Shown here in pieces: positions 1,635-14,642 of a stretch of DNA of 21,388 nt. The DNA lies in the IMG/VR virus record IMGVR_UViG_3300029080_000073; one strand, given 5' to 3'. The first letter of the stretch is position 1, and each line of letters opens with the position of its first letter. This DNA comes from a virus (lineage: Duplodnaviria > Heunggongvirae > Uroviricota > Caudoviricetes). The position numbers were made by a program, and so were the translations under genes. Under the pieces are notes generated by a model, which was given only the letters and a program-made list of their open reading frames with translations, did no database searches and was not told the DNA's origin.

Positions 1635-1991
1635 TTACTGGTAATCCCCTTCTTCACCGTGGAACTCAAGATCGACCGTGCCTTCTTCGGCATTATGGTT
1701 CGCTTCGCCGTGCAGCCAGGCAGACGACAGTACATAGACCTGACCGTTCGCCAGCTCGGCAGTGATGGTCATCTCATCAGACGAGGTGATTTTGCTCACC
1801 GGAAAATTCTTCGGCACCTTGAAGGTCCCTTTGACATAAGGCGCACGGTGAGTTTCCTTGCGGTCCACTGAACCGTCCAGGCCGATGATGTCATCATTGA
1901 CCGTCCTGTTCATGGGCACCTCAATGCCGCCGGTCAGTGATAGCTGCTGACCGTCAATTTTGAAATAACAGGTTCCCCCGATACGGGCCAT
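1635..1991 (-). CDS. contractile-tail tube protein
   Basis: 118-aa ORF immediately after the sheath-like ORF (stop/start abut at 1991), with size and position typical of Mu gpM / P2 FII tube proteins. Confidence 0.5.
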   Translation of the reverse strand: MARIGGTCYFKIDGQQLSLTGGIEVPMNRTVNDDIIGLDGSVDRKETHRAPYVKGTFKVPKNFPVSKITSSDEMTITAELANGQVYVLSSAWLHGEANHNAEEGTVDLEFHGEEGDYQ

Positions 1992-2767
1992 TATGCAGAC
2001 TCCTCTGAATACTGAAGACGGAACTGGTTAACCACGGCAAAGACACGCAACTGGTTAACATAGTCAGGCGGGAACAGCGTGTTCAGGCGGTTCGGATCGC
2101 TGGCATCACGCTCCACAACCAGGTACTGCTTGAACAGTTCGTAGTTTTCCACGATCCCCGCACGCTCGAGCTGACGGTAGGTTGCCAGCAGTTCCCCTTT
2201 GATCACCGCCGGGGTGACAATCGCCTGACCGGGACCAAAGCGGGTACCGTCACTGGCAAGCTTGTGACGCCCGTACTTACTGGTAATGACGGATTTCAGT
2301 TTGCGCAGTACATACGCGCTGGTATGCAGCGTCTCGCTGTCGAGGTAGCTGTTATCCGCAACCCCGTAAGCGTTTTTCCTGTACGTGGTGACATCACGCT
2401 GAATGCGCAGCACCCCGCTTTCGACATACGCCGTTGCCACGCCATGAGACAGCAGGGTCTGCTGCTCGGTCATTGTGAACCGTTTCCCCTTCGGCGCAGG
2501 CAGCATACCCACCAGCTCACCGGTCTGCGTGGGACGTGCCGGATCGTTGCGGATAAACACTGCCGCGCGGGCGGTACGGCTGGCTGCCAGCTCGTCGGCA
2601 GGCGTCTGGGTGTCTTTTTCGTACCCCGCCAGGGTAATGTGCTGCTGGTTAAACTGGTCACCTGCGGTCACCAGTTCTGACAGCGTGCCGGTCTTTGCCG
2701 TATACACATGACCATACAGCTGACGCGCATAGCTCCAGCGACCGCTGGTATCGTTCATCTCGGTCAC
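1991..2767 (-). pseudogene. tail sheath protein, C-terminal portion only (truncated)
   Basis: 258-aa ORF directly upstream of the tube gene with a sheath-like C-terminus; too short for a sheath and overlaps the terminase fragment in another frame. Confidence 0.45.
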
Positions 2768-3332
2768 CGTCCTCCGGACGGCTCATGCTTTGAGCATGTA
2801 CTTCAATACCAAATGCTTCACGCAATGGCTCCGTGCGTTGCGCCATCAGTCTGGCTGGACGAAAAACTTCCCACGCCTGTTTCTCTGTTGTGGCCCCGGA
2901 ATACACTTCAGCGCCAAATTCATCATCGCAGGCAAACATATACAGACCAACGCCAGCAGACATTGCTGATTTCCCGTTTTTACGGGGTATTTCGTTGTAA
3001 GCCTCGCGAAATCGACGCAGACCGCTCTTTTTTCTCACCCACCCAAACACAACACAGATACAGAACAACTGCCAGGGTTCAAGCGTAATGGGCATCCGCT
3101 TAAATGCCCACTCCCCTTTGGTGTGTGGCAAAAGCTGGATAAATTTCGCCACCCGCTCAGCTTTATCTTTATCAAATTTAAACGGATAGTTTTTTTTAAC
3201 TGAATTTTCCAGGTCATCAAGGTGACGCTGGCAGGCTAGAACGACATAACGGCAAACCTGAATTTTTCCGCGAACCACGTCACGTGCATACTGATTTGCG
3301 GCATTAACGTTCACGTAATTTTTTCGTGTCAT
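2658..3332 (-). pseudogene. terminase large subunit, N-terminal ATPase fragment (truncated)
   Basis: Follows the small terminase gene with overlapping stop/start; Walker A-like PRKNGKS present; only 224 aa with a non-protein-like tail ([11 protein letters not shown]...), no nuclease domain. Confidence 0.6.
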
Positions 3333-3799
3333 AGGTTTTTAAATGGATTATCGCTCCCCTGCTTCGGCGTGATAAGCCGCTGCCGACTGGCAGGATCGAG
3401 TCCTAATAAACTACCGAATGTCACCATTTGTCTGGCGGCCTCATTTGCCGCCGTGAGTGCCGGGTTTTTCTTTGGCCCCGCCTCACTCTCTACCGTAATC
3501 CCAACGCGCATAACCTCCTGCTGCGACTCATGCCAGTTGCGAAAAGCAGTGCAGAATGCAACGACGTTGTGCAAATCAGTAACATAAAGAACTCGCTGGG
3601 CACAGAGCTCACGAATAATGGTGTCCCACATATGACGAGCGGTTTCATCAAACCACTCGGGAGGCTCAGCATGGGTGATCGGCGTGAATTTTGGTTCAAA
3701 CTTATTTAATGCCCGCTTGCCGGGATTGCCTGCCAGTTCCTTACGGGTAGTCGGCTTCGGCTTTCTCCCTCTTCCGGGCGCAACAGATTTTTCTGACAT
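3329..3799 (-). CDS. terminase small subunit, P27 family
   Basis: N-terminal signature [18 protein letters not shown] typical of P27-family small terminases; sits between the HNH endonuclease and large terminase genes. Confidence 0.75.
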
Positions 3800-3914
3800 G
3801 TCAAATCCTGAAATTTTTAATTTCGCGGGTGTAAAAATTTGACGAGGCGGGCGGTCCCGGACAGCCAGGGCTGCAGGGATTTGCCCCGCCCCTCCCTACA
3901 AGTGAGAATAATTA
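3800..3914. promoter_or_regulatory. candidate cos / packaging-site region between HNH and terS
   Basis: GC-rich non-coding spacer with symmetric G/C runs (ggggcgggg ... cccgcccgcc); HNH-terS-terL phages usually carry cos here. Confidence 0.25.
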
Positions 3915-4334
3915 TCACCTGATTCGTTCGCGCGCTGTTTTCGCTTTATGGCAGGGCCAGCACAGACTCTGCAGGTTGCTGTCTGCGTCTGTTCCGCCAT
4001 GCGCTTTCGGGATGATGTGGTCGACGGTTTTCGCCTCGCTCACCACACCGGCACGCAGACACAACTGACACAGACCTTTATCGCGCTTCAGAATACGGGC
4101 ACGAATCACCGTCCATTTTGAGCCATAGCCACGCTGGTGGCGGCTCAGTCCGCGCTGGTGCTGCACCCAGCCTTCACCACGATGTTTACCACAGTAGCCA
4201 GAACTGTCTGTTGTTGTGCCTGCGCAGCCTCGCTTACGACAGGCGCGGGGGATCCGTGATGGCATTGGAATCTCCTTAATACCGACATTATCGCAGCCCC
4301 TCACTGAAGAGCTGCTGTAATGCCTGTTACTCAC
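3915..4334 (-). CDS. HNH endonuclease (packaging-associated)
   Basis: HNH motif DHIIPKAHGGTDADSNLQSLCWPCHKAK with flanking Cys pairs; classic position just upstream of terS. Confidence 0.8.
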   Translation of the reverse strand: MSNRHYSSSSVRGCDNVGIKEIPMPSRIPRACRKRGCAGTTTDSSGYCGKHRGEGWVQHQRGLSRHQRGYGSKWTVIRARILKRDKGLCQLCLRAGVVSEAKTVDHIIPKAHGGTDADSNLQSLCWPCHKAKTARERIR

Positions 4335-4434
4335 GAATCAATCGAGCATGTTGACCGCTCATTTCAATGCGTAAGTATTGTGGCTTGCCGTCAATCAACG
4401 CGGTGATTAACTTATCACCTGTAGGTTTCCACAT
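4327..4434 (-). CDS. hypothetical small protein (35 aa)
   Basis: ATG preceded by a perfect AGGAGA at 5-nt spacing; translation MWKPTGDKLITALIDGKPQYLRIEMSGQHARLIRE; below the ORF-track size cutoff. Confidence 0.3.
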   Translation of the reverse strand: MWKPTGDKLITALIDGKPQYLRIEMSGQHARLIRE

Positions 4435-4607
4435 AATTTTCTCCTGTTTTAATGCCCCTTGCCGCCGGGCAGTTGATCAAAGTTCATCTTGATTCGGCAA
4501 GATTTAGAATGAATAAGATAAAATTGGCACACGCAGCAGAATTTCATGCTTTCCGGACGCTGACGCACCCTTCATTTTTCAGCAAAATATTCTGCTCTTA
4601 CAGGCGA

Positions 4608-4763
4608 TCAGTTCTGCAGACACTGCCGAACACCGTCGACAATTTCACAGACCTGAGACGCGGTATCGAAAAGCTGGCGCGCCTTATCCAGGCTGACGCA
4701 CCCCACCAATAAAAAAGGCACCAGTATCGCTACCAGTGCCCGTTTCACCGCCGTTCGCGGCAT
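4608..4763 (-). CDS. small lipoprotein (51 aa from internal Met; track ORF 4608..4790)
   Basis: Signal peptide MPRTAVKRALVAILVPFLLVG followed by lipobox Cys (LLVGC); 29-aa mature peptide with two more Cys. Confidence 0.4.
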   Translation of the reverse strand: MPRTAVKRALVAILVPFLLVGCVSLDKARQLFDTASQVCEIVDGVRQCLQN

Positions 4764-4996
4764 TCTGTGTGTCCAGTGTTTTCGCGCCATATCACCACCA
4801 ACGCACAGCCCAAATCAGAACAGCGACCGCCACAAGGCGAATTGCAAAGGCCGCAGCCCTTGTCAAATCAAGGCTCGCGGGAGTTTCCATTTCAATACCT
4901 TTCATAATGGACAACCTCAAAAAGAATCTTTTATACTTTCCCACGAGGATTTTCTCCGTACTCACTAATCACAATTTCCCCTTTGACGTGAAAACT

Positions 4997-5035
4997 AAAA
5001 ACCCCGGACTGTTCCCCCAGCCGGGGTTTTGTTTT
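4997..5035 (-). terminator. intrinsic terminator immediately 3' of the endolysin gene (may act in both directions)
   Basis: Stem aaaaccccgg / ccggggtttt flanked by A-run and T-run on both sides. Confidence 0.55.
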
Positions 5036-5037
5036 AC

Positions 5038-5421
5038 TTATCGCTTCAGCTGAAAGTGAGGTCCGTCTTTCAGCGTTTTCCAGTCCCCGCCCCATTCGAT
5101 AGCGATCCCCAGCTCTGCGGCAGCCTGCTTAAATGCCTGTGCGATTTTCTCGTACAGAGGCCACTCCCATGACACCTGACTGCCAATGTAGGCCACAACA
5201 TCCACCGCATCACCGGTCAGGTGGCGGCTGTTCATGGTCTGGCTTTTCCCTTCCGCAACCAGCTGTTTCTGGCGATACTTACTGCGCAGGCCTTCCGTAA
5301 TACCGAAATCAACCTCCGTCAGCTCCAGCGCACGGCGAACTACAGCAACCAGCTGTGGTTTGACACCCTCCAGATTTTTTTCACTGCGACGGCTGAATCT
5401 GAATTTACCCGGCATATTCAC
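5038..5421 (-). CDS. endolysin, peptidase M15 family (L-alanyl-D-glutamate peptidase type)
   Basis: Zn-ligand-like motifs HLTGDAVDV and GGDW...DGPHFQL characteristic of VanY/M15 phage endolysins. Confidence 0.8.
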   Translation of the reverse strand: MNMPGKFRFSRRSEKNLEGVKPQLVAVVRRALELTEVDFGITEGLRSKYRQKQLVAEGKSQTMNSRHLTGDAVDVVAYIGSQVSWEWPLYEKIAQAFKQAAAELGIAIEWGGDWKTLKDGPHFQLKR

Positions 5422-5693
5422 CTCAACAATGGAAAGATTTTTGTGACGTTCCCGCGTGCGCGTATCACCAGCACGCAGAACAGCAGATTAAAAAACACTT
5501 CCAACCAGCCCGTTGCTAACGGGCGACCACACAGATAGCTGAGGGGCGCAAAGGCATACAGCAGCATCAGCAGCCAGGCCAGCCATGACACCAGCGGTTT
5601 ATGCCTGGAATCACGGCGACGATAAAAAAAGAGCGTCAGCACGATAACCGCGCATAACGCCACATTCAGCAATCCGGGAAGGTTACTTAACAT
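5418..5693 (-). CDS. membrane protein of lysis cassette (holin/antiholin-like)
   Basis: Two hydrophobic helices (LLNVALCAVIVLTLFFY, LVSWLAWLLMLLYAFAPL); stop overlaps the endolysin start; start set at internal Met (track ORF 5418..5747). Confidence 0.45.
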   Translation of the reverse strand: MLSNLPGLLNVALCAVIVLTLFFYRRRDSRHKPLVSWLAWLLMLLYAFAPLSYLCGRPLATGWLEVFFNLLFCVLVIRARGNVTKIFPLLR

Positions 5694-6075
5694 TGCCGCC
5701 TCCTCCACCCCGCAGGCGGGAGAACACACCGGACACCAGCGATGCAATATCCTGCTGGTGGATGAACGAGAGAATCTTCACCGACACCACCGAGACCAGC
5801 ACCGCGCAAAGCGCATCTGCTGATGTAGCGTCATACCCTGTTTTTGATGCAATCCAGGCTGACAGCACACGCGCTCCCAGCACGCCGACAATAAACGACA
5901 CCAGAAAATGTGCCACCACGCGCCAGACTGAAAGTGACTGTGGCATTGTTGCCACAAATAACGCCCCGGCGAACGCGCCAAACACAATCCCGAAATCCAT
6001 CCCGGTAAACAGCCCGAATACCGTCGCGCCACCCAGCGCCGCAGCCGTGCCGGAACCGGATAAGGGTTCAGACAT
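5683..6075 (-). CDS. putative holin (multi-pass membrane protein)
   Basis: Gly/Ala-rich hydrophobic segments (GMDFGIVFGAFAGALFVA, FLVSFIVGVLGARVL); immediately upstream of the other lysis genes. Confidence 0.45.
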   Translation of the reverse strand: MSEPLSGSGTAAALGGATVFGLFTGMDFGIVFGAFAGALFVATMPQSLSVWRVVAHFLVSFIVGVLGARVLSAWIASKTGYDATSADALCAVLVSVVSVKILSFIHQQDIASLVSGVFSRLRGGGGGNVK

Positions 6076-6311
6076 ACTTCCTCCTGAAAATAAAAAAGGG
6101 CCACCAGCGACCCGTAAAAAAACACCCCGTCAAAGGCATCCGCAGATGCCTTTTGTGTGATGTTATTCAGATTTACGCAGTAAAGGCCGGAGCACGACCA
6201 GCGCCATCGCCACCAGCACACCATCTGCCAGCACCGACATCAGTCGTCCGGTGAAATCAACCACCACTACCAGAAACAACAGGATGACAGCCAGCACAAG
6301 GCGCGCACTTT

Positions 6312-6914
6312 TCACAGGTACTGCTCCAGCGGCAACTGCAGCGCCTGCGCAATTTTCTTCAGTTGCGCTTCTTCTTCCTGAGCGATACCGTCCTGGTCAG
6401 CGATATCCAGACACAGGCACAGCACATTAACTGCATCATCAGTACCGGCAACATCAGCCAGCTGACGAAGAGCTTCGGCATTGGCAGAACGCGGCGACGC
6501 TTCATAACGGGCGCGGATATTTGCACTCATTTGTGCAATCTCACCGGAGAACGGCGCAAAGGCAGGAAGTGCTGCAATGGTTTTTTCCAGTACCGCGATT
6601 TCTTTCGCGTCACAGGTGCCGTCAGCGTATGCAATGGAGTACGCGCCCCAGACGGTCGCCTCCACTGCGTCACGGTTCTCCATCTTCTTCACTTCGGTAA
6701 TGGCCTTGCGGGTTTTCTTTTTGAAAATACTAAACATCGTGACTTTTCCTTTTAGTGGGTGAGCCTGCATAACAAGCTGAGTCAGTATTAACTGGCAGCG
6801 TTCGCGTGAAAGGTAAGTATTCTGCGCAATTTCCCCGACGGTCGCCGGTTCGGTGACGCTTAATTCATTAAACACCACTCTGGCGGTTTCGGTCATATCC
6901 TGCTGTTTTAGCAT
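6312..6914 (-). CDS. TerB-like (tellurite-resistance-fold) domain protein, cargo gene
   Basis: Paired YADGTCDAKEIAVLEKTI and IADQDGIAQEEEAQLKKIAQAL motifs resemble the TerB fold; start set at internal Met preceded by AAAGG (track ORF begins 7037 inside the terminator). Confidence 0.45.
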   Translation of the reverse strand: MLKQQDMTETARVVFNELSVTEPATVGEIAQNTYLSRERCQLILTQLVMQAHPLKGKVTMFSIFKKKTRKAITEVKKMENRDAVEATVWGAYSIAYADGTCDAKEIAVLEKTIAALPAFAPFSGEIAQMSANIRARYEASPRSANAEALRQLADVAGTDDAVNVLCLCLDIADQDGIAQEEEAQLKKIAQALQLPLEQYL

Positions 6915-7035
6915 GCCTTTTTCCCTTTTCTGGTTAACGTGACATACCAATACCTCTTGTCGAAAAAGCCAGCAAGCTGAAAGACCAGTATTCACAACTA
7001 CCAGCGCGTTTAATGTTCTGTGCCGTTTTTCAGGC

Positions 7036-7063
7036 ATAAAAAAACCCGCATAAAGCGGGTTCT
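7036..7063 (-). terminator. intrinsic terminator downstream of Q (tR'-like)
   Basis: Stem aacccgc / gcgggtt with 5-nt loop; on the minus strand followed by a 7-T run. Confidence 0.55.
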
Positions 7064-7068
7064 TTCAG

Positions 7069-7226
7069 GTGTCCATGTCTGCTATTCGCCTCGCGGTACA
7101 GCTTTGCGAAGCGTAGCTGGATTGAAACAGTTTATGGCTAAAAATACAAGCTTTTTTTCTAAAACTGCACAAACCTTACTACCAGCCAAAAATCCTCTTC
7201 GTGCAACAACAAACGCCCTCCAGATT
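7069..7226 (-). promoter_or_regulatory. candidate late promoter / qut region between Q and the terminator
   Basis: Position only: about 160 bp AT-rich spacer between Q stop and terminator, as for lambda PR'-qut-tR'. Confidence 0.3.
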
Positions 7227-7781
7227 CTAAGCGTCAGTAAAAGAAAATGCATCTCGCATCAGTGGATACAGAATAAACTCAGCTATTCTCAGCCACATAT
7301 CTATACGATTGCGGCATGTTGCATAGCACCACTCAGGGTGAACCTCATTCAACAATTCAGCCATTTTGCGTTTACTCATCCCCCGCCCTTCGTACCTTTG
7401 CCGCAGGATATCAATCAATCCAGGATAACGTGCAAGCGCTTTACTTATCACCCCATCAATGCGTAACGCCTCTGCATCAGTACAGTGAGACAACCAGCTC
7501 TTCTGTCTGCCAGCGATCATCTCTCGCAAGAATGCTTCCAGCTCTGGTTTATCAATCCCTGACTCCCTGATTCTACGCAGGGCTTCATTGATTGCGGTTT
7601 TTGTCAGTTTTTTGGATGCCAGCAACTGATTGAACATATTTCCTGGTTTGCCACCACCTATATACGACCAACGCCCCCACATCCGTAATTTCCCCTGGAT
7701 CCAGACGACTTCCAGCGTTTTTAGACGTAAATGCTCGCCGCTTTTGCCTGTAATTTCCGGATATATCATATTTACGATCAC
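7227..7781 (-). CDS. late-gene antitermination protein Q-like
   Basis: 184-aa ORF directly after RusA and before the terminator and lysis cassette, the DLP12/82 arrangement; assignment is positional plus weak recall. Confidence 0.5.
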   Translation of the reverse strand: MIVNMIYPEITGKSGEHLRLKTLEVVWIQGKLRMWGRWSYIGGGKPGNMFNQLLASKKLTKTAINEALRRIRESGIDKPELEAFLREMIAGRQKSWLSHCTDAEALRIDGVISKALARYPGLIDILRQRYEGRGMSKRKMAELLNEVHPEWCYATCRNRIDMWLRIAEFILYPLMRDAFSFTDA

Positions 7782-8143
7782 TCACTCTCAATTTTGTAAA
7801 TCTTCACGCCCAGCCGCCCCCCAGGAACGAGCTGACCGCGCACAATATTGATTTCATCAAACTGCTCGTCGTCTATGAGAAGTCCGGCATGCGTCAGCGC
7901 ATCCAGTGGTGCTTTCAGGATATTGTCCAGGTCACGACGACGTTTATCCGGTGGCTCTGCAATAATCTTTATCGCCAGCCTTCCGGACAGGTTTAATTTC
8001 AGCCGCTGCTGGCGAACAATAAGCGCCACATCACGGCGATAACGCTCACCGGCTTTTGATACAAAATATGTGCTGCCACGACGTCGCCAGTAAGTGTTCA
8101 CCGTTGGCGGGTAAGGCAAAACAAATTCTATGCGTTCAGTCAT
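7778..8143 (-). CDS. rusA: crossover junction endodeoxyribonuclease RusA (Holliday junction resolvase)
   Basis: 121 aa; motifs LPYPPTVNTYW and DKRRRDLDNILKAPLDALTHAGLLIDD match the RusA family (catalytic D-x-D-N). Confidence 0.85.
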   Translation of the reverse strand: MTERIEFVLPYPPTVNTYWRRRGSTYFVSKAGERYRRDVALIVRQQRLKLNLSGRLAIKIIAEPPDKRRRDLDNILKAPLDALTHAGLLIDDEQFDEINIVRGQLVPGGRLGVKIYKIESE

Positions 8144-9127
8144 TCATGCTTTCCACTTCAGGACACCCGAATTTCTCGCGTGCATTAAAAAACGAATCAG
8201 CAACAACAGCTGGCTGCCGTGTTTTTCTTCAAAATCTTTTACCCCGGCGTGTAGTTCGCTATGGCATTTACGGCACAGCGGAATAACAAACAAATCATCA
8301 GCCTTTGTTCCCATCCCTCCCAGTCCATGACCAATGATGTGATGCGGATCATCTGCCTGATTGCCACACGTCATGCATTTCTGCGTTTTTACCCAGCGCG
8401 TGTATACAGGCATCTCTTCCCGTTGTGGTTTCTGGCGCTGGAGATACTGAGCCGGTGACTCCGGATCAACGGCAATGCTGACCACCGTCTTTTCCTGTGG
8501 CGGGTTTTGCTGGTGGGCGTGAGGCAGTAGCGCAATACTTTTTGTGCGCTGCTTCAGCATGCTGGTGGCGGTCTGCTCTCCCGGCACGATGTCGCTCTCG
8601 CGGTATACTGAGCGAATTTTTTCCGCGCGTAATCCCAGCGAACGACGTAACACCATCTCCGGTAGTGCGTCCGCTACGTTATTTATGGTTGCCCACCAGG
8701 ATAATTCAGCCAGCGATAATTCCCGCTCCTGCGTGCCATTCATTGCGTGGCGGATGACATCAATCATCCATGCTGACAGGTTTTGGTGAGCAAGTTGCTC
8801 GAGTGATTCGGAAGTCTGGTTACGCAGCTGGTTGTCGCAGTGCCAGCACAACACCATCGCGCCGGTACCGTAACGATGTATGACGGTTTCACTGTGATGG
8901 TAGTCACCATGAGGCCACTGGCAGGATTTAACGTGGCGTAACAGCCAGTCAGACAATGCACCAGCACCACCAGCAGCACGAATCACCCGCTCATCGCTGA
9001 AAAATGGCAGTAATGATTTATCCTCCGCCAGCGGCTGGCGAACAGCAGGAACGACTCCGGACGGCAGACCGCGCATGCTTTTCGGTTCCGGCTCCACCAG
9101 AACTCGAGGGTTATGAAATACCTGCAT
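8144..9127 (-). CDS. DUF968 (YdfU-like) protein with C-terminal HNH-like zinc motif
   Basis: C-terminal CMTCGNQADDPHHIIGHGLGG...IPLCRKCHSELH motif; start uncertain (track ORF 8144..9271 overlaps the upstream gene; internal Met chosen). Confidence 0.5.
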   Translation of the reverse strand: MQVFHNPRVLVEPEPKSMRGLPSGVVPAVRQPLAEDKSLLPFFSDERVIRAAGGAGALSDWLLRHVKSCQWPHGDYHHSETVIHRYGTGAMVLCWHCDNQLRNQTSESLEQLAHQNLSAWMIDVIRHAMNGTQERELSLAELSWWATINNVADALPEMVLRRSLGLRAEKIRSVYRESDIVPGEQTATSMLKQRTKSIALLPHAHQQNPPQEKTVVSIAVDPESPAQYLQRQKPQREEMPVYTRWVKTQKCMTCGNQADDPHHIIGHGLGGMGTKADDLFVIPLCRKCHSELHAGVKDFEEKHGSQLLLLIRFLMHARNSGVLKWKA

Positions 9128-9200
9128 GGATTCACGGCCCGGTTTTAGCACCACCAGCCCAAGTTCCGGTACCGGAACAGGTCGAAGTAATACCCGCACG

Positions 9201-9608
9201 TTACCTCCAGATGCGTTGCTGGAATGTGCGGGACGGACGCGGTGGGCGTTCGGAATAAGGGAGCCTGACATAGATTATCCAGTGACGATAATCGAGGCTG
9301 AGGGCTTTCTTAATCTCGTATCCGTGTCTGCGGTAGCGCTGAATCAGCCATTCAGCCTGTTCTTCGGTGCAGGGATCGTGCTGATACCAGTCAGATTTGA
9401 ATGCATGAGAACGCCGCCCGTGCCTGCTGGCAGGGGCGGCAGAGTTATCCGAATTGTAAAATTTGGTATCGTGCGCCATCTGTTTTCTCTGCTGGCGCAG
9501 CAGGTGCCAGTTGTTCAGGCTGACGGATGGATTGTAAACCAGAACGACCAGAAAAAACAAAACCCGCCGAAGCGGGTTAAGTGCGGGTGCGTTGAGGATG
9601 CCTGACAC
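9201..9608 (-). CDS. hypothetical protein between hok and the DUF968 gene (Rem-like position)
   Basis: ORF track only; likely true start at internal MAHDTKF (about 9479). Confidence 0.3.
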   Translation of the reverse strand: MSGILNAPALNPLRRVLFFLVVLVYNPSVSLNNWHLLRQQRKQMAHDTKFYNSDNSAAPASRHGRRSHAFKSDWYQHDPCTEEQAEWLIQRYRRHGYEIKKALSLDYRHWIIYVRLPYSERPPRPSRTFQQRIWR

Positions 9609-9646: not shown

Positions 9647-9802
9647 TTACTCCTCAGGTTCGTAAGCTGTGAAGACAGCGACCTCCGTCTGGCCGGTTCG
9701 GATTCGTACCTCGCAGAGGTCTTTCCTCGTTACCAGTGCCGTCACTATGACGGTTAAACAGATGACGATCAGGGCGATTAACATCGCCTTTTGCTGCTTC
9801 AT
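9647..9802 (-). CDS. hok: Hok/Gef family type I toxin (51 aa)
   Basis: MKQQKAMLIALIVICLTVIVTALVTRKDLCEVRIRTGQTEVAVFTAYEPEE matches the Hok/Gef family throughout (TM helix plus conserved C-terminal tail). Confidence 0.9.
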   Translation of the reverse strand: MKQQKAMLIALIVICLTVIVTALVTRKDLCEVRIRTGQTEVAVFTAYEPEE

Positions 9803-9859
9803 AGCCTGCTTCTCCTTGCCTTTCGGCACGTAAGAGGCTAACCTACATTTGTGAGACAT
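9647..9859 (-). CDS. mok: mok-like overlapping reading frame
   Basis: In-frame upstream extension (MSHKCRLASYVPKGKEKQA) of the hok ORF, as in hok/mok/sok loci. Confidence 0.55.
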   Translation of the reverse strand: MSHKCRLASYVPKGKEKQAMKQQKAMLIALIVICLTVIVTALVTRKDLCEVRIRTGQTEVAVFTAYEPEE

Positions 9860-9975
9860 AGATTGGGCCTCAGATTAATGTTAAGCGTCTTGCAGGACGC
9901 GTAATGTTAACTGGGGCTTTTCTCTATCTGCCTTTTGGTGTTCATGCCTGAGACAGATAGCCTCAAGCACCCGCA
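9860..9975 (+). ncRNA. sok: hok mRNA leader / predicted Sok antisense RNA region (exact ends not mapped)
   Basis: Region upstream of mok carries GCUUGAGGCU-like 5' end and local hairpins expected of the hok leader; Sok would lie on the opposite strand here. Confidence 0.3.
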
Positions 9976-14163: not shown

Positions 14164-14355
14164 ATGAGTACAGCCCTTTCTCCGATAGTTTCAGAATTCG
14201 AAACTACCGAACAAGAAAACAGTTACAACGAATGGTTACGCGCTAAAGTGGCGTCAAGCCTTGCAGACCCTCGTCCCTCAATTCCACATGATGAGGTAAT
14301 GGCTGAAATGGAGAATCTTATTGCTCAAATTGCTGTAACTAACAGGAGCGAGTAA
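14164..14355 (+). CDS. type II antitoxin (ParD/RelB-like)
   Basis: 63-aa ORF whose stop overlaps the toxin start (ATGA), directly upstream of a ParE/RelE-fold toxin. Confidence 0.55.
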   Translation: MSTALSPIVSEFETTEQENSYNEWLRAKVASSLADPRPSIPHDEVMAEMENLIAQIAVTNRSE

Positions 14356-14642
14356 TGTTACCCATTTTGTGGCTACCATCTGCTCGCGATGATTTGCGTC
14401 AGATCGTAGCCTATATTGCTAAGGAAAATATTCCTGCAGCACGCAGACTAAAAATACGGATTGAAACGTCTGTTTTAGCCCTCTCTGAGCATCCATATCT
14501 ATATCCGCCAAGTGATCGAGTATCCGGTTTGCGGGAAATTGTGGTTCACCCTAATTATATCGTTTTGTACCGAGTAGCAGCTTCAAGCATTGAAATTGCA
14601 AATATTGTGCATGCCCGCCGACAATTTCCCTTCCCTATCTGA
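14355..14642 (+). CDS. type II toxin, ParE/RelE superfamily
   Basis: 95 aa; DDLRQIVAYIAKENIPAARRL ... GLREIVVHPNYIVLYRV ... IANIVHARR matches the ParE/RelE pattern. Confidence 0.7.
   Translation: MLPILWLPSARDDLRQIVAYIAKENIPAARRLKIRIETSVLALSEHPYLYPPSDRVSGLREIVVHPNYIVLYRVAASSIEIANIVHARRQFPFPI

What the first reader, a model, noticed from the sequence alone, without database searches (positions are those of the whole stretch)
6312..7068. TerB-like cargo gene in the late-promoter moron slot (between Q/tR' and lysis genes)
This is the position Stx phages use for toxin genes, so its product would be strongly expressed on induction. The protein carries two TerB-fold-like ADG/DQDG motifs. A short hydrophobic ORF (about 6165..6307, VKSARLVLAVILLFLVVVVDF...) follows it before the holin.
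Basis: partly seen in the sequence, partly recalled or inferred. Interest (0 to 1): 0.5.

Follow-up and report, generated by a model that had tools for sequence, protein, structure and literature searches.

The report
Phage TerB–TciB cargo gene pair
A known two-gene phage accessory cassette, a TerB-fold protein plus a tiny membrane partner (the TciA/TciB pair of phage P1), sits between the late-gene antiterminator and the lysis genes of a defective E. coli-type prophage, where a related phage carries Shiga toxin; it is real but ordinary and already annotated, and its function is still untested.

Summary
All genes here are on the minus strand.

- **TerB gene:** it is 6312..6737 (141 aa). It passes Pfam TerB, has a TerB-like predicted fold, and is 85% identical to P1 TciA.
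- **Partner gene:** the hydrophobic ORF 6163..6315 is DUF3927, the homologue of P1 TciB. Its start overlaps the TerB stop (GTGA).
- **Upstream third of the interval (6768..7049):** this is the 5' part of a different small gene, like phiP27 L23. A private 1,694-bp deletion fused it in frame to TerB. The deletion removed a methyltransferase gene and two tRNA genes.
- **Slot:** Q (7227..7781), a conserved promoter-like element and a strong terminator hairpin lie upstream. Two holins and an endolysin lie downstream.
- **Same slot as toxin:** phiP27 is homologous from the terminator hairpin (tR') through tRNA-Arg, then carries stx2e where relatives carry TerB–TciB.
- **Distribution:** 79 of 80 related viral contigs show Q … TerB–TciB, with the lysis genes following wherever the contig reaches them. 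The pair also occurs next to cI-like repressors, in P1, and in lytic phages.

PHROGs already files both genes as morons. Function is untested; I infer a membrane-associated guard or exclusion module. Low novelty.

The parts
7227..7781 (-). Q-like late antiterminator (DUF1133 type), 184 aa
   Evidence: Pfam DUF1133 335 bits; Phage_antitermQ 27.8 bits against a cut-off of 26. PHROG 753 'anti-termination protein Q-like', E 2.6e-78. It follows RusA and DUF968, as in relatives.
7121..7149 (-). Candidate late promoter (pR'-like): -35 TTGTAT (7149..7144), 17-nt spacer ending TGt, -10 TTCAAT (7126..7121)
   Evidence: Inferred. TTGnnn-17 nt-TTCAAT keeps its position in 10 of the 11 sequence variants downstream of DUF1133-type Q genes, although the surrounding bases differ. 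The consensus scan does not report it.
7037..7120 (-). Conserved short leader ending in a tR'-like intrinsic terminator. GC stem 7061..7043, U-tract 7044..7038; the extended A/U-paired stem reaches 7067..7037
   Evidence: Fold dG -20.3 kcal/mol, z -6.3, 0 of 200 shuffles as stable. The leader is conserved across diverged Q loci and contains a -10-like TACGCT. The simple terminator scan misses it because the U-tract pairs with the upstream A-run.
6768..6914 (-). Remnant of the phiP27 L23-like small gene (first 49 of 65 codons)
   Evidence: 93% nucleotide identity to phiP27 L23 and to Stx2a phage genes. Translations compared. PHROG 331, unknown function.
6767..6768 (.). Deletion junction: 1,694 bp missing relative to the ATCC 43886 prophage (3' end of L23, DNA methyltransferase, tRNA-Ile, tRNA-Arg, and most of the TerB leader)
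   Evidence: Window 9068..6768 equals L001 3..2306, and window 6768..2753 equals L001 4001..8016. There are no tRNAs in the window. The junction 26-mer was found only in the window and L005.
6312..6737 (-). tciA-type TerB-family gene, 141 aa
   Evidence: Pfam TerB. 85% aa identity to P1 TciA. Model pLDDT 85 with six helices. TerB-like fold hits. dN/dS 0.05-0.08.
6312..6914 (-). In-frame L23'-TerB fusion ORF (200 aa), a by-product of the deletion
   Evidence: Translation. This exact protein is called on 6 public contigs.
6163..6315 (-). tciB-type DUF3927 gene, 50 aa, two hydrophobic segments. Its GTG start overlaps the TerB stop (GTGA)
   Evidence: Pfam DUF3927 54 bits. PHROG 1470 'TciB-like'. 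Hydropathy shows segments 3-23 and 25-46 with basic ends. It follows TerB in 79 of 80 viral loci.
6092..6164 (-). Two hairpins between tciB and the holin. The second (6113..6098) is followed by a U-run and looks like a terminator
   Evidence: The same element is found in L001.
5683..6075 (-). Holin (Phage_holin_8), 130 aa
   Evidence: Pfam 82 bits. PHROG 198 holin.
5418..5693 (-). Second holin-family gene (Phage_holin_3_7), 91 aa
   Evidence: Pfam 77 bits. PHROG 217 holin. Annotated in the relative.
5038..5415 (-). M15 metallopeptidase endolysin
   Evidence: Pfam Peptidase_M15_4 49 bits. Annotated in the relative.

Best explanation
This is a copy of the phage accessory cassette tciA-tciB, sitting in the late operon of a lambdoid prophage.

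Shown:
- tciA encodes a soluble six-helix TerB-fold protein. It has two acidic 'ADG...E' repeats and a basic N-terminus that the model does not order.
- tciB encodes a 50-aa protein with two hydrophobic segments. Its start overlaps the tciA stop.
- The pair lies after a Q-like gene and a terminator hairpin, and before holin, holin and endolysin. A relative carries stx2e in the same slot.

Inferred:
- The pair is transcribed mainly by Q-modified RNA polymerase from a pR'-like promoter near 7121..7149, so it is switched on with the late genes after induction.
- TciB inserts as a hairpin with both ends in the cytoplasm and recruits TciA to the inner membrane. This would parallel the reported pairing of TerB with TerC in ter operons.
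- The complex binds divalent cations through the conserved Asp/Glu residues.
- It buffers or monitors inner-membrane and ion stress. The infected or lysogenic cell would then tolerate outside insults to the energised membrane, such as pore-forming colicins or DNA injection by superinfecting phages. That amounts to exclusion, or protection against premature holin triggering.
- It is dispensable for plaque formation.

In this window a deletion has removed most of the normal leader. It has also created an L23'-TerB fusion ORF alongside the native start.
For: Identity:
- Pfam, PHROGs and fold results agree.
- 85% aa identity to P1 TciA, and DUF3927 is the family of P1 TciB.

Pairing:
- The GTGA stop/start overlap is read.
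- TciB follows TerB in 79 of 80 IMG/VR loci and 10 of 12 species-level genome loci.
- It also follows TerB in P1, P7, LMessi, JLK-2012, Klebsiella phage 5 and the N4-like phage FSL SP-076.
- Vibrio phage MS02 pairs TerB with TerC instead.

Membrane link:
- TciB hydropathy and basic ends.
- TerB residues 1-20 carry 7 Lys/Arg, and residues 1-12 have pLDDT below 50.
- A TerC-TerB complex is reported in PMC12054061. TerB membrane association is cited in 10.1101/2022.05.11.491447.

Slot and transcription:
- Synteny with stx2e in phiP27.
- Four different Q families sit upstream of the same cassette.
- The consensus scan finds no sigma-70 promoter between Q and TerB, while there are 1 terminator here and 3 in intact relatives.
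- A conserved promoter-like element and leader follow Q.

Selection: dN/dS 0.05-0.08.

Host-directed role:
- The cassette occurs in accessory slots of temperate phages and also in strictly lytic phages.
- ter operons give phage inhibition and colicin resistance.
- TerB domains occur in the Bunzi and Shango defence systems, where they were proposed to act in 'membrane surveillance'.
- P1 tciA, tciB and tciC are non-essential by CRISPRi (PMC10695390).
Against: - No experiment on TciA/TciB function was found. The name rests on homology only.
- There is no PADLOC hit.
- There is no sequence-level match to any solved TerB structure. Fold scores are moderate (Foldseek E 6e-3, TM 0.54-0.60).
- The promoter assignment is weak. 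The -10 is TTCAAT and the consensus scan reports nothing.
- Metal binding and the TciA-TciB contact are untested.
- The timing of expression differs between phages: late in lambdoids, in the C1-controlled ban operon in P1, and next to cI in others. One single role is therefore not assured.
- About half of one P1 subgroup lack tciABC.
- This prophage is defective and its copy carries a deletion, so this locus may not be under selection.
Confidence: 0.55

Rival explanations
1. The cassette is a lysogenic-conversion or defence cassette. It is expressed from the resting prophage and protects the lysogen against other phages or colicins, as lambda rexAB or sieB do. The position in the late operon is incidental.
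For: - In Pseudomonas lundensis (L099) and Erwinia rhapontici (L102) contigs, the pair lies co-directionally 0.5-1.1 kb downstream of a cI-like HTH/S24 repressor. That is the rexAB-like position.
- In Pseudomonas phage AF, TerB lies next to a repressor-like gene.
- ter operons inhibit phages.
- TerB domains occur in Bunzi and Shango.
Against: - No promoter-like site lies upstream of TerB, either here or in intact relatives, and 1-3 terminators separate it from Q.
- The cassette is present in strictly lytic N4-like and jumbo phages, which have no lysogens.
- There is no PADLOC hit.
Confidence: 0.25
2. The cassette is a lysis-timing accessory. TciB, a small two-segment membrane protein, together with TciA tunes the adjacent holins (antiholin-like).
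For: - In the IMG/VR loci the pair sits directly upstream of holin8-holin3_7-M15 wherever the contig extends that far, while the upstream side varies.
- It also lies before a different lysis cassette in LMessi.
Against: - In P1, P7, the N4-like phage, jumbo phages and the loci next to cI or cII, the pair is not next to lysis genes.
- In JLK-2012 an esterase gene separates them.
- A terminator-like hairpin lies between tciB and the holin.
- The 80 loci are close relatives (at least 90% identical), so the linkage may simply be inherited.
Confidence: 0.1
3. The cassette is a tellurite-resistance determinant for the host, as the database name suggests.
For: Pfam and PGAP name it so. TerB is part of terZABCDE.
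Against: - No other ter gene is in the window.
- Work cited in PMC12054061 places the minimal resistance unit in TerC-TerD together with TerZ or TerA, not in TerB.
- Lytic phages carry the cassette.
Confidence: 0.05
4. In this particular element the locus is a decaying remnant with no current function.
For: - The prophage lacks most of the large terminase subunit and the head genes.
- A 1.7-kb deletion removed the leader and made a fusion ORF.
- The junction was seen only in this element.
Against: - tciA and tciB are intact. The segment spanning them is 99.8% identical in DNA to the ATCC 43886 copy, and TerB differs from that copy at a single residue.
- The Shine-Dalgarno sequence and the start codon are retained.
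- Q, the holins and the endolysin are intact.
Confidence: 0.05

Closest known systems
Phage P1 tciA-tciB(-tciC)
   Same: - TciA is 85% identical at the protein level and about 81% at the DNA level.
- TciB belongs to the same DUF3927 family.
- The gene order is the same and the genes abut.
- tRNA genes lie nearby.
   Different: - There is no tciC here.
- In P1 the genes lie between the C1-controlled Pban promoters and ban, on the same strand, not in a Q-dependent late operon.
- Function is unknown in both; the P1 name rests on homology.
TerB of the terZABCDE tellurite-resistance operon (Pfam PF05099)
   Same: - Same domain family.
- Same two ADG...E repeats.
- TerB-like helical fold.
- A membrane protein as neighbour.
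   Different: - No terC, terD, terZ, terA or terE genes accompany it here.
- The partner is a 50-aa protein rather than TerC.
- There is no sequence-level match to any solved structure, TerB-family entries included.
stx2e cargo slot of phage phiP27 (and the stx slot of Stx phages in general)
   Same: The flanks are the same: tR'-like hairpin, L23, methyltransferase, tRNA-Ile, tRNA-Arg and its terminator on one side, then cargo.
   Different: - The cargo is TerB-TciB rather than a toxin.
- In this window the L23 3' end, the methyltransferase and the tRNAs are deleted.
TerB-domain proteins of the Bunzi and Shango anti-phage systems
   Same: They contain a TerB-type domain and are proposed to act at the membrane.
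   Different: No PADLOC model matches. There are no helicase, ATPase or other partner genes here.
Lambda rexA-rexB (analogy only)
   Same: It is a two-gene accessory pair made of a soluble protein and a membrane protein. In some phages TerB-TciB occupies the same position downstream of cI.
   Different: There is no homology, and no evidence for a comparable mechanism.

Membership tests
TerB family (Pfam PF05099) | Profile score above Pfam's gathering threshold | tested here: met
   31.4 and 32.3 bits against a cut-off of 24.4. All 92 distant relatives hit TerB, best E 1.6e-24.
TerB family (Pfam PF05099) | Two internal repeats with a conserved acidic Asp-Gly ... Glu motif | tested here: met
   G40, E46, G117 and E122 are the only near-invariant columns in 92 sequences at 22-68% identity. 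D39 and D114 are invariant and D116 is near-invariant among close relatives.
TerB family (Pfam PF05099) | TerB-like all-helical fold | tested here: met
TerB family (Pfam PF05099) | Divalent-metal binding by the conserved acidic residues | not testable with these tools
   Inferred from conservation only.
ter (terZABCDE) tellurite-resistance operon | Co-encoded TerC and TerD-family genes | tested here: not met
   The neighbours are Q, the L23 remnant, TciB and lysis genes.
ter (terZABCDE) tellurite-resistance operon | Confers tellurite resistance | not testable with these tools
   This is a phenotype.
P1-type tciA-tciB cassette | A TciA-type TerB gene followed immediately by a DUF3927 (TciB) gene on the same strand | tested here: met
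   GTGA overlap at 6315..6312. DUF3927 54 bits. PHROG 632 and PHROG 1470.
P1-type tciA-tciB cassette | A third small gene, tciC | tested here: not met
   There is no ORF in 6076..6162. P1 and LMessi have one.
Lambdoid late-operon moron (stx-type slot) | Lies between the Q gene and the lysis cassette, on the same strand | tested here: met
   The same order is found in 80 related loci.
Lambdoid late-operon moron (stx-type slot) | A pR' promoter and a tR' terminator lie upstream | tested here: inconclusive
   The terminator hairpin is strong. The promoter is inferred only from positional conservation, and the consensus scan is negative.
Lambdoid late-operon moron (stx-type slot) | Positional equivalence to stx in a related phage | tested here: met
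   phiP27 and L001 are collinear up to the terminator after tRNA-Arg. After that point one carries stx2e and the other TerB.
Lambdoid late-operon moron (stx-type slot) | Q-dependent transcription after induction | not testable with these tools
   Needs RNA measurements.
Known anti-phage defence systems (PADLOC-DB v2, including Bunzi and Shango) | A match to a system protein model, plus the partner genes | tested here: not met
   No families at E up to 1 for TerB, TciB or the fusion.
DjlA co-chaperone (N-terminal TerB-like domain) | A match to the NCBIfam DjlA equivalog, plus a J domain | tested here: not met
   14 bits against a cut-off of 162. There is no J domain.

The most novel reading that the evidence does not exclude
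TciA-TciB may be a self-contained two-protein 'membrane guard' that phages of many kinds carry. It occurs in lambdoid late operons, in slots next to cI, in P1, and in N4-like and jumbo lytic phages. A TerB-fold cation sensor docked on a 50-aa membrane hairpin would stabilise or monitor the energised inner membrane. It would thereby exclude superinfecting phages and pore-forming colicins, or set the threshold for holin triggering. That would give the long-unexplained phage TerB genes a function. It would also link them mechanistically to the phage-inhibition and colicin-resistance phenotypes of ter operons and to TerB-domain defence systems.
Probability: 0.3. Interest if true: 0.55.

Novelty: already known. 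Interest (0 to 1): 0.25.

Why it matters
- **Slot flexibility.** The locus shows plainly that the toxin slot of Stx phages is a general cargo slot. The same flanks carry stx2e in phiP27 and TerB-TciB in many E. coli prophages.
- **Prevalence and selection.** The cassette itself is common. A segment at least 80% identical at the DNA level occurs in 346 of 5,426 complete E. coli genomes, and it is under strong purifying selection.
- **Spread.** It occurs across temperate and lytic phages, yet no function has been shown since it was named by homology in the P1 genome annotation.
- **What a phenotype would explain.** A clear phenotype would account for a widespread phage accessory gene and would bear on what TerB domains do in ter operons and in defence systems.
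- **This copy.** The copy in this window adds little. It is a deleted variant in a defective prophage.

Tried and rejected
- **Solved structures by sequence.** Searches with the single protein and with a profile found no TerB structure, only chance hits such as PNPase and a DUF1524 protein. The fold comparison was needed instead.
- **NCBIfam.** Only a sub-threshold DjlA hit.
- **PADLOC.** Nothing.
- **Rfam.** Only sok, elsewhere in the window.
- **Promoter and terminator scans.** The consensus scans found no promoter between Q and TerB and missed the tR'-like hairpin. I located these by folding and by aligning the regions downstream of Q.
- **Recurrent boundary at 6768.** I considered that position 6768 might be a recurrent mosaic boundary. 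I rejected this because all other loci share a 141-171 nt TerB leader, and only this element is cut at -31.
- **Model of the complex.** I tried to prepare a TerB-TciB model from the natural fusion protein P0061. MAFFT aligned the TciB rows onto the TerB 'ADG' motif. The tool also returns no interface measures. I did not run the job.
- **Distant alignment for locus search.** The search for related loci with the distant alignment failed for lack of conserved stretches. I used the close alignment instead.
- **Pas sRNAs.** I looked for the Pas sRNA sequences in the preprint's supplement, to compare them with the hairpins between tciB and the holin. Nothing was found.
- **Literature.** Searches found no functional study of TciA/TciB or DUF3927.
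Full report
**What is in the sequence**

All relevant genes are on the minus strand. Read 5' to 3' on that strand, the order is:
- a DUF968 gene (8144..9271);
- RusA (7778..8143);
- a 184-aa Q-like gene (7227..7781);
- a 312-nt non-coding stretch;
- an open frame running from 7037 to 6312;
- a 50-aa hydrophobic ORF (6163..6315);
- two holin-family genes (5683..6075 and 5418..5693);
- an M15 endolysin (5038..5415).

Pfam supports each assignment:

| Gene | Pfam family | Score |
|---|---|---|
| Q-like gene | DUF1133 | 335 bits |
| Q-like gene | Phage_antitermQ | 27.8 bits (cut-off 26) |
| Open frame 7037..6312 | TerB | 31.4 bits (cut-off 24.4) |
| 50-aa ORF | DUF3927 | 54 bits |
| First holin | Phage_holin_8 | 82 bits |
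| Second holin | Phage_holin_3_7 | 77 bits |
| Endolysin | Peptidase_M15_4 | 49 bits |

PHROGs agrees. It labels the genes 'anti-termination protein Q-like' (E 2.6e-78), 'tellurite resistance' (PHROG 632, E 1.8e-63), 'TciB-like' (PHROG 1470) and holins. It places the TerB and TciB families in its 'moron, auxiliary metabolic gene and host takeover' category.

**The interval is a chimera**

Megablast against complete E. coli genomes found no genome that holds the whole of 6100..7300 in one piece. The segment 6100..6768 is 99.9% identical to a prophage of strain ATCC 43886. RefSeq annotates a 141-aa 'tellurite resistance TerB family protein' and a 'DUF3927 family protein' there. The segment 6768..7049 matches a small gene of phiP27 (L23) and of Stx2a phages.

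Pairwise BLAST shows a clean 1,694-bp deletion. Window 9068..6768 equals L001 3..2306, and window 6768..2753 equals L001 4001..8016. The missing piece holds:
- the last 16 codons of the L23-like gene;
- a DNA methyltransferase gene;
- tRNA-Ile and tRNA-Arg;
- all but the last 31 nt of the TerB leader.

ARAGORN finds no tRNA in the window. The junction happens to be in frame. The L23 start at 6914 therefore now reads through into TerB, giving a 200-aa product. That exact protein is called on six public contigs. The native TerB start is kept: ATG at 6737, with AAGGA 9 nt upstream.

The junction 26-mer occurs only in the window and in the matching metagenome scaffold L005. All other loci that extend far enough upstream share a conserved TerB leader of 141-171 nt or more. 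The deletion is therefore private to this element and is not a recurrent mosaic boundary.

The ATG at 7037 lies inside the terminator U-tract.

**Is it TerB?**

- **Profiles.** Pfam TerB is above threshold. A full HMMER scan of 1.84 billion representative proteins gave 166 relatives. All 92 that I aligned hit PF05099.
- **Motifs.** In that alignment (22-68% identity to the query, most 25-40%) the only near-invariant columns are G40, E46, G117 and E122. ADG is at 6626..6618 and DQDG is at 6398..6387.
- **Solved structures by sequence.** These searches found nothing meaningful.
- **Fold.** An AlphaFold2 model built on 40 homologues has pLDDT 85, pTM 0.80 and six helices. Only residues 1-12 are disordered.
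  - Foldseek also puts 2h5n first (probability 1.00, TM 0.54-0.60).
  - Against viral models, four phage proteins match at TM 0.67-0.77.
- **Selection.** dN/dS against P1, LMessi and a Klebsiella phage is 0.05-0.08, with synonymous differences at 60-68% of sites.

The TerB assignment is sound.

**The hydrophobic ORF is the conserved partner**

The ORF is 6163..6315. Its GTG start overlaps the TerB stop in the sequence GTGA, which is the usual arrangement for translational coupling. It has two hydrophobic stretches (residues 3-23 and 25-46) and basic ends. By the positive-inside rule this suggests a hairpin with both ends in the cytoplasm; that is inference.

It belongs to the same Pfam family as P1 TciB. 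A DUF3927 gene follows TerB in:
- P1 and P7;
- LMessi and JLK-2012;
- Klebsiella phage 5 LV-2017, where it is unannotated;
- the lytic N4-like Salmonella phage FSL SP-076 (45.7 bits);
- weakly (16 bits, below the cut-off of 25), an Erwinia jumbo phage.

It also follows TerB in 79 of 80 IMG/VR loci and in 10 of 12 species-level genome loci. A Vibrio phage instead has TerC next to TerB.

**The slot**

*The region downstream of Q.* I aligned the DNA downstream of DUF1133-type Q genes. Ten of the eleven sequence variants share a positionally conserved TTGnnn, a 17-nt spacer ending in TGn, and TTCAAT. In the window this is 7149..7121.

A conserved leader follows. It contains a -10-like TACGCT and ends in a hairpin with a U-tract. 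The stem core is 7061..7043 and the seven U's are at 7044..7038. The fold has dG -20.3 kcal/mol and z -6.3.

From established knowledge of lambdoid Q proteins, a sigma-dependent promoter-proximal pause is where Q loads. The layout therefore looks like pR', a short leader RNA and tR'. The promoter assignment remains an inference, because the consensus scan reports nothing.

*No internal promoter.* No promoter-like site lies between Q and TerB, either here or in the intact relative. The intact relative has three terminator-like hairpins on the way, and the deletion left one here.

*Comparison with phiP27.* phiP27 and the ATCC 43886 prophage are collinear at 90% identity from the tR'-like hairpin through L23, the methyltransferase, tRNA-Ile, tRNA-Arg and its terminator. 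After that point phiP27 has stxA2e/stxB2e and the prophage has TerB-TciB.

*Survey of related loci.* Across the 80 IMG/VR loci:
- four unrelated Q families sit upstream;
- the middle part varies in content (L23, methyltransferase, tRNA sets of differing identity, a 183-aa ORF);
- TerB-TciB, followed by holin-holin-endolysin where the contig reaches it, is constant.

**Where else the cassette occurs**

- In P1 and P7 it lies between the C1-controlled Pban promoters and ban, on the same strand and among tRNA genes.
- In two genome contigs it lies co-directionally downstream of a cI-like HTH/S24 repressor. This is the position of rexAB in lambda.
- In one contig it follows a CII (CP76) gene in an early operon, and in another it lies near recT.
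- It is also present in strictly lytic phages.
- A segment at least 80% identical at the DNA level occurs in 346 of 5,426 complete E. coli genomes, at 244 chromosomal and 171 plasmid places.

**What it probably does**

Nothing has been shown experimentally. [quoted passage not shown] CRISPRi scored tciA, tciB and tciC as non-essential (PMC10695390). A survey of P1-like elements calls the role unclear and notes frequent loss (PMC9603915).

The following points bear on a mechanism:
- an obligate pairing with a membrane protein, TciB or TerC;
- the reported TerC-TerB complex and the phage-inhibition and colicin-resistance phenotypes of ter operons (PMC12054061);
- TerB domains in the Bunzi and Shango defence systems, with a suggested role in 'membrane surveillance';
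- presence in lytic as well as temperate phages.

From these I infer a membrane-associated module that binds cations. It would protect or monitor the energised inner membrane during phage development or lysogeny. The outcome would be exclusion of other phages or colicins, or protection against premature holin triggering.

I hold the identity and the slot at about 0.9 and this mechanism at about 0.3-0.4. The rivals are pure lysogenic conversion, holin regulation, tellurite resistance and a dead remnant. They are listed with their evidence in the rival explanations.

**Context of this copy**

The prophage is defective. Homology to the intact relative ends about 580 nt into the large terminase gene, near window position 2753. 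It is joined there to a sheath-gene fragment, so the head genes are missing. Q, TerB, TciB, the holins and the endolysin are intact.

**Verdict**

The feature is real and correctly interpreted, but its boundaries were wrong. The kind is already known: RefSeq annotates near-identical proteins, PHROGs files both genes as morons, and the P1 and JLK-2012 records name them tciA and tciB. The only particular features here are the deletion and the resulting fusion ORF. Interest is low, apart from the standing open question of what phage TerB-TciB does.

Noticed in passing
window 6767-6768 (junction); fusion ORF 6312..6914 (-): A private 1,694-bp deletion removed the 3' end of the L23-like gene, a DNA methyltransferase, tRNA-Ile, tRNA-Arg and most of the TerB leader. 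It created an in-frame 200-aa L23'-TerB ORF. The exact protein is on 6 public contigs, and the junction is absent from 94 other loci.
   Followed up: yes
window 1991..3332 (-): The prophage is defective. Homology to the intact relative stops about 580 nt into the large terminase gene, near 2753, and joins a truncated tail-sheath gene. The head genes are missing.
   Followed up: partly
window 6076..6164 (-): Two stable hairpins lie between tciB and the holin. The second has a U-run and looks like a terminator, and it is conserved in relatives. It could mark a 3'-end-derived small RNA. A 2026 preprint places the PasA and PasC sRNAs next to a holin-lysozyme operon and lists TerB as a conserved neighbour gene. 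I could not obtain their sequences to compare.
   Followed up: partly
window 9647..9972 (-): A hok/sok-type toxin-antitoxin locus. Rfam sok scores 120 bits, and there is a Hok-family ORF at 9647..9859.
   Followed up: no
window 14164..14642 (+): A ParE toxin / PaaA2 antitoxin pair lies next to the immunity region, by correspondence with the genes called on L005.
   Followed up: no
L001 3857-4031; leaders of L014-L093: A conserved 141-171 nt leader lies upstream of TerB in almost all relatives. It has a terminator hairpin at about -160 and GTGAC / GGTCAC / GCTCACCC-like repeats. Its role is unknown. Only the last 31 nt survive in the window.
   Followed up: partly
L003, L008, L010, L013, L014-L093: TerB-TciB is repeatedly adjacent to tRNA genes of varying identity. 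This holds in P1, P7, JLK-2012, many prophages and an Erwinia jumbo phage.
   Followed up: no
L099 1715-4075; L102 2245-4075: In a Pseudomonas lundensis contig and an Erwinia rhapontici chromosome, the pair lies co-directionally downstream of a cI-like HTH/S24 repressor. This is the position of rexAB in lambda.
   Followed up: partly
window 7150..7226 (-): An extra segment separates the Q stop codon from the promoter-like element. In the other DUF1133-Q phages with this element, it lies within about 15 nt of the stop codon.
   Followed up: no
PP818812.1 16385-18235: A record named 'Actinobacillus phage vB_Apl-pPE4' carries an E. coli-type TerB region at 92% DNA identity and 96.5% protein identity. 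The host label looks odd.
   Followed up: no
L012 381-1929: Vibrio phage vB_VpaP-MS02 encodes a TerC/Alx-family membrane protein directly upstream of its TerB, and has no DUF3927 gene.
   Followed up: no
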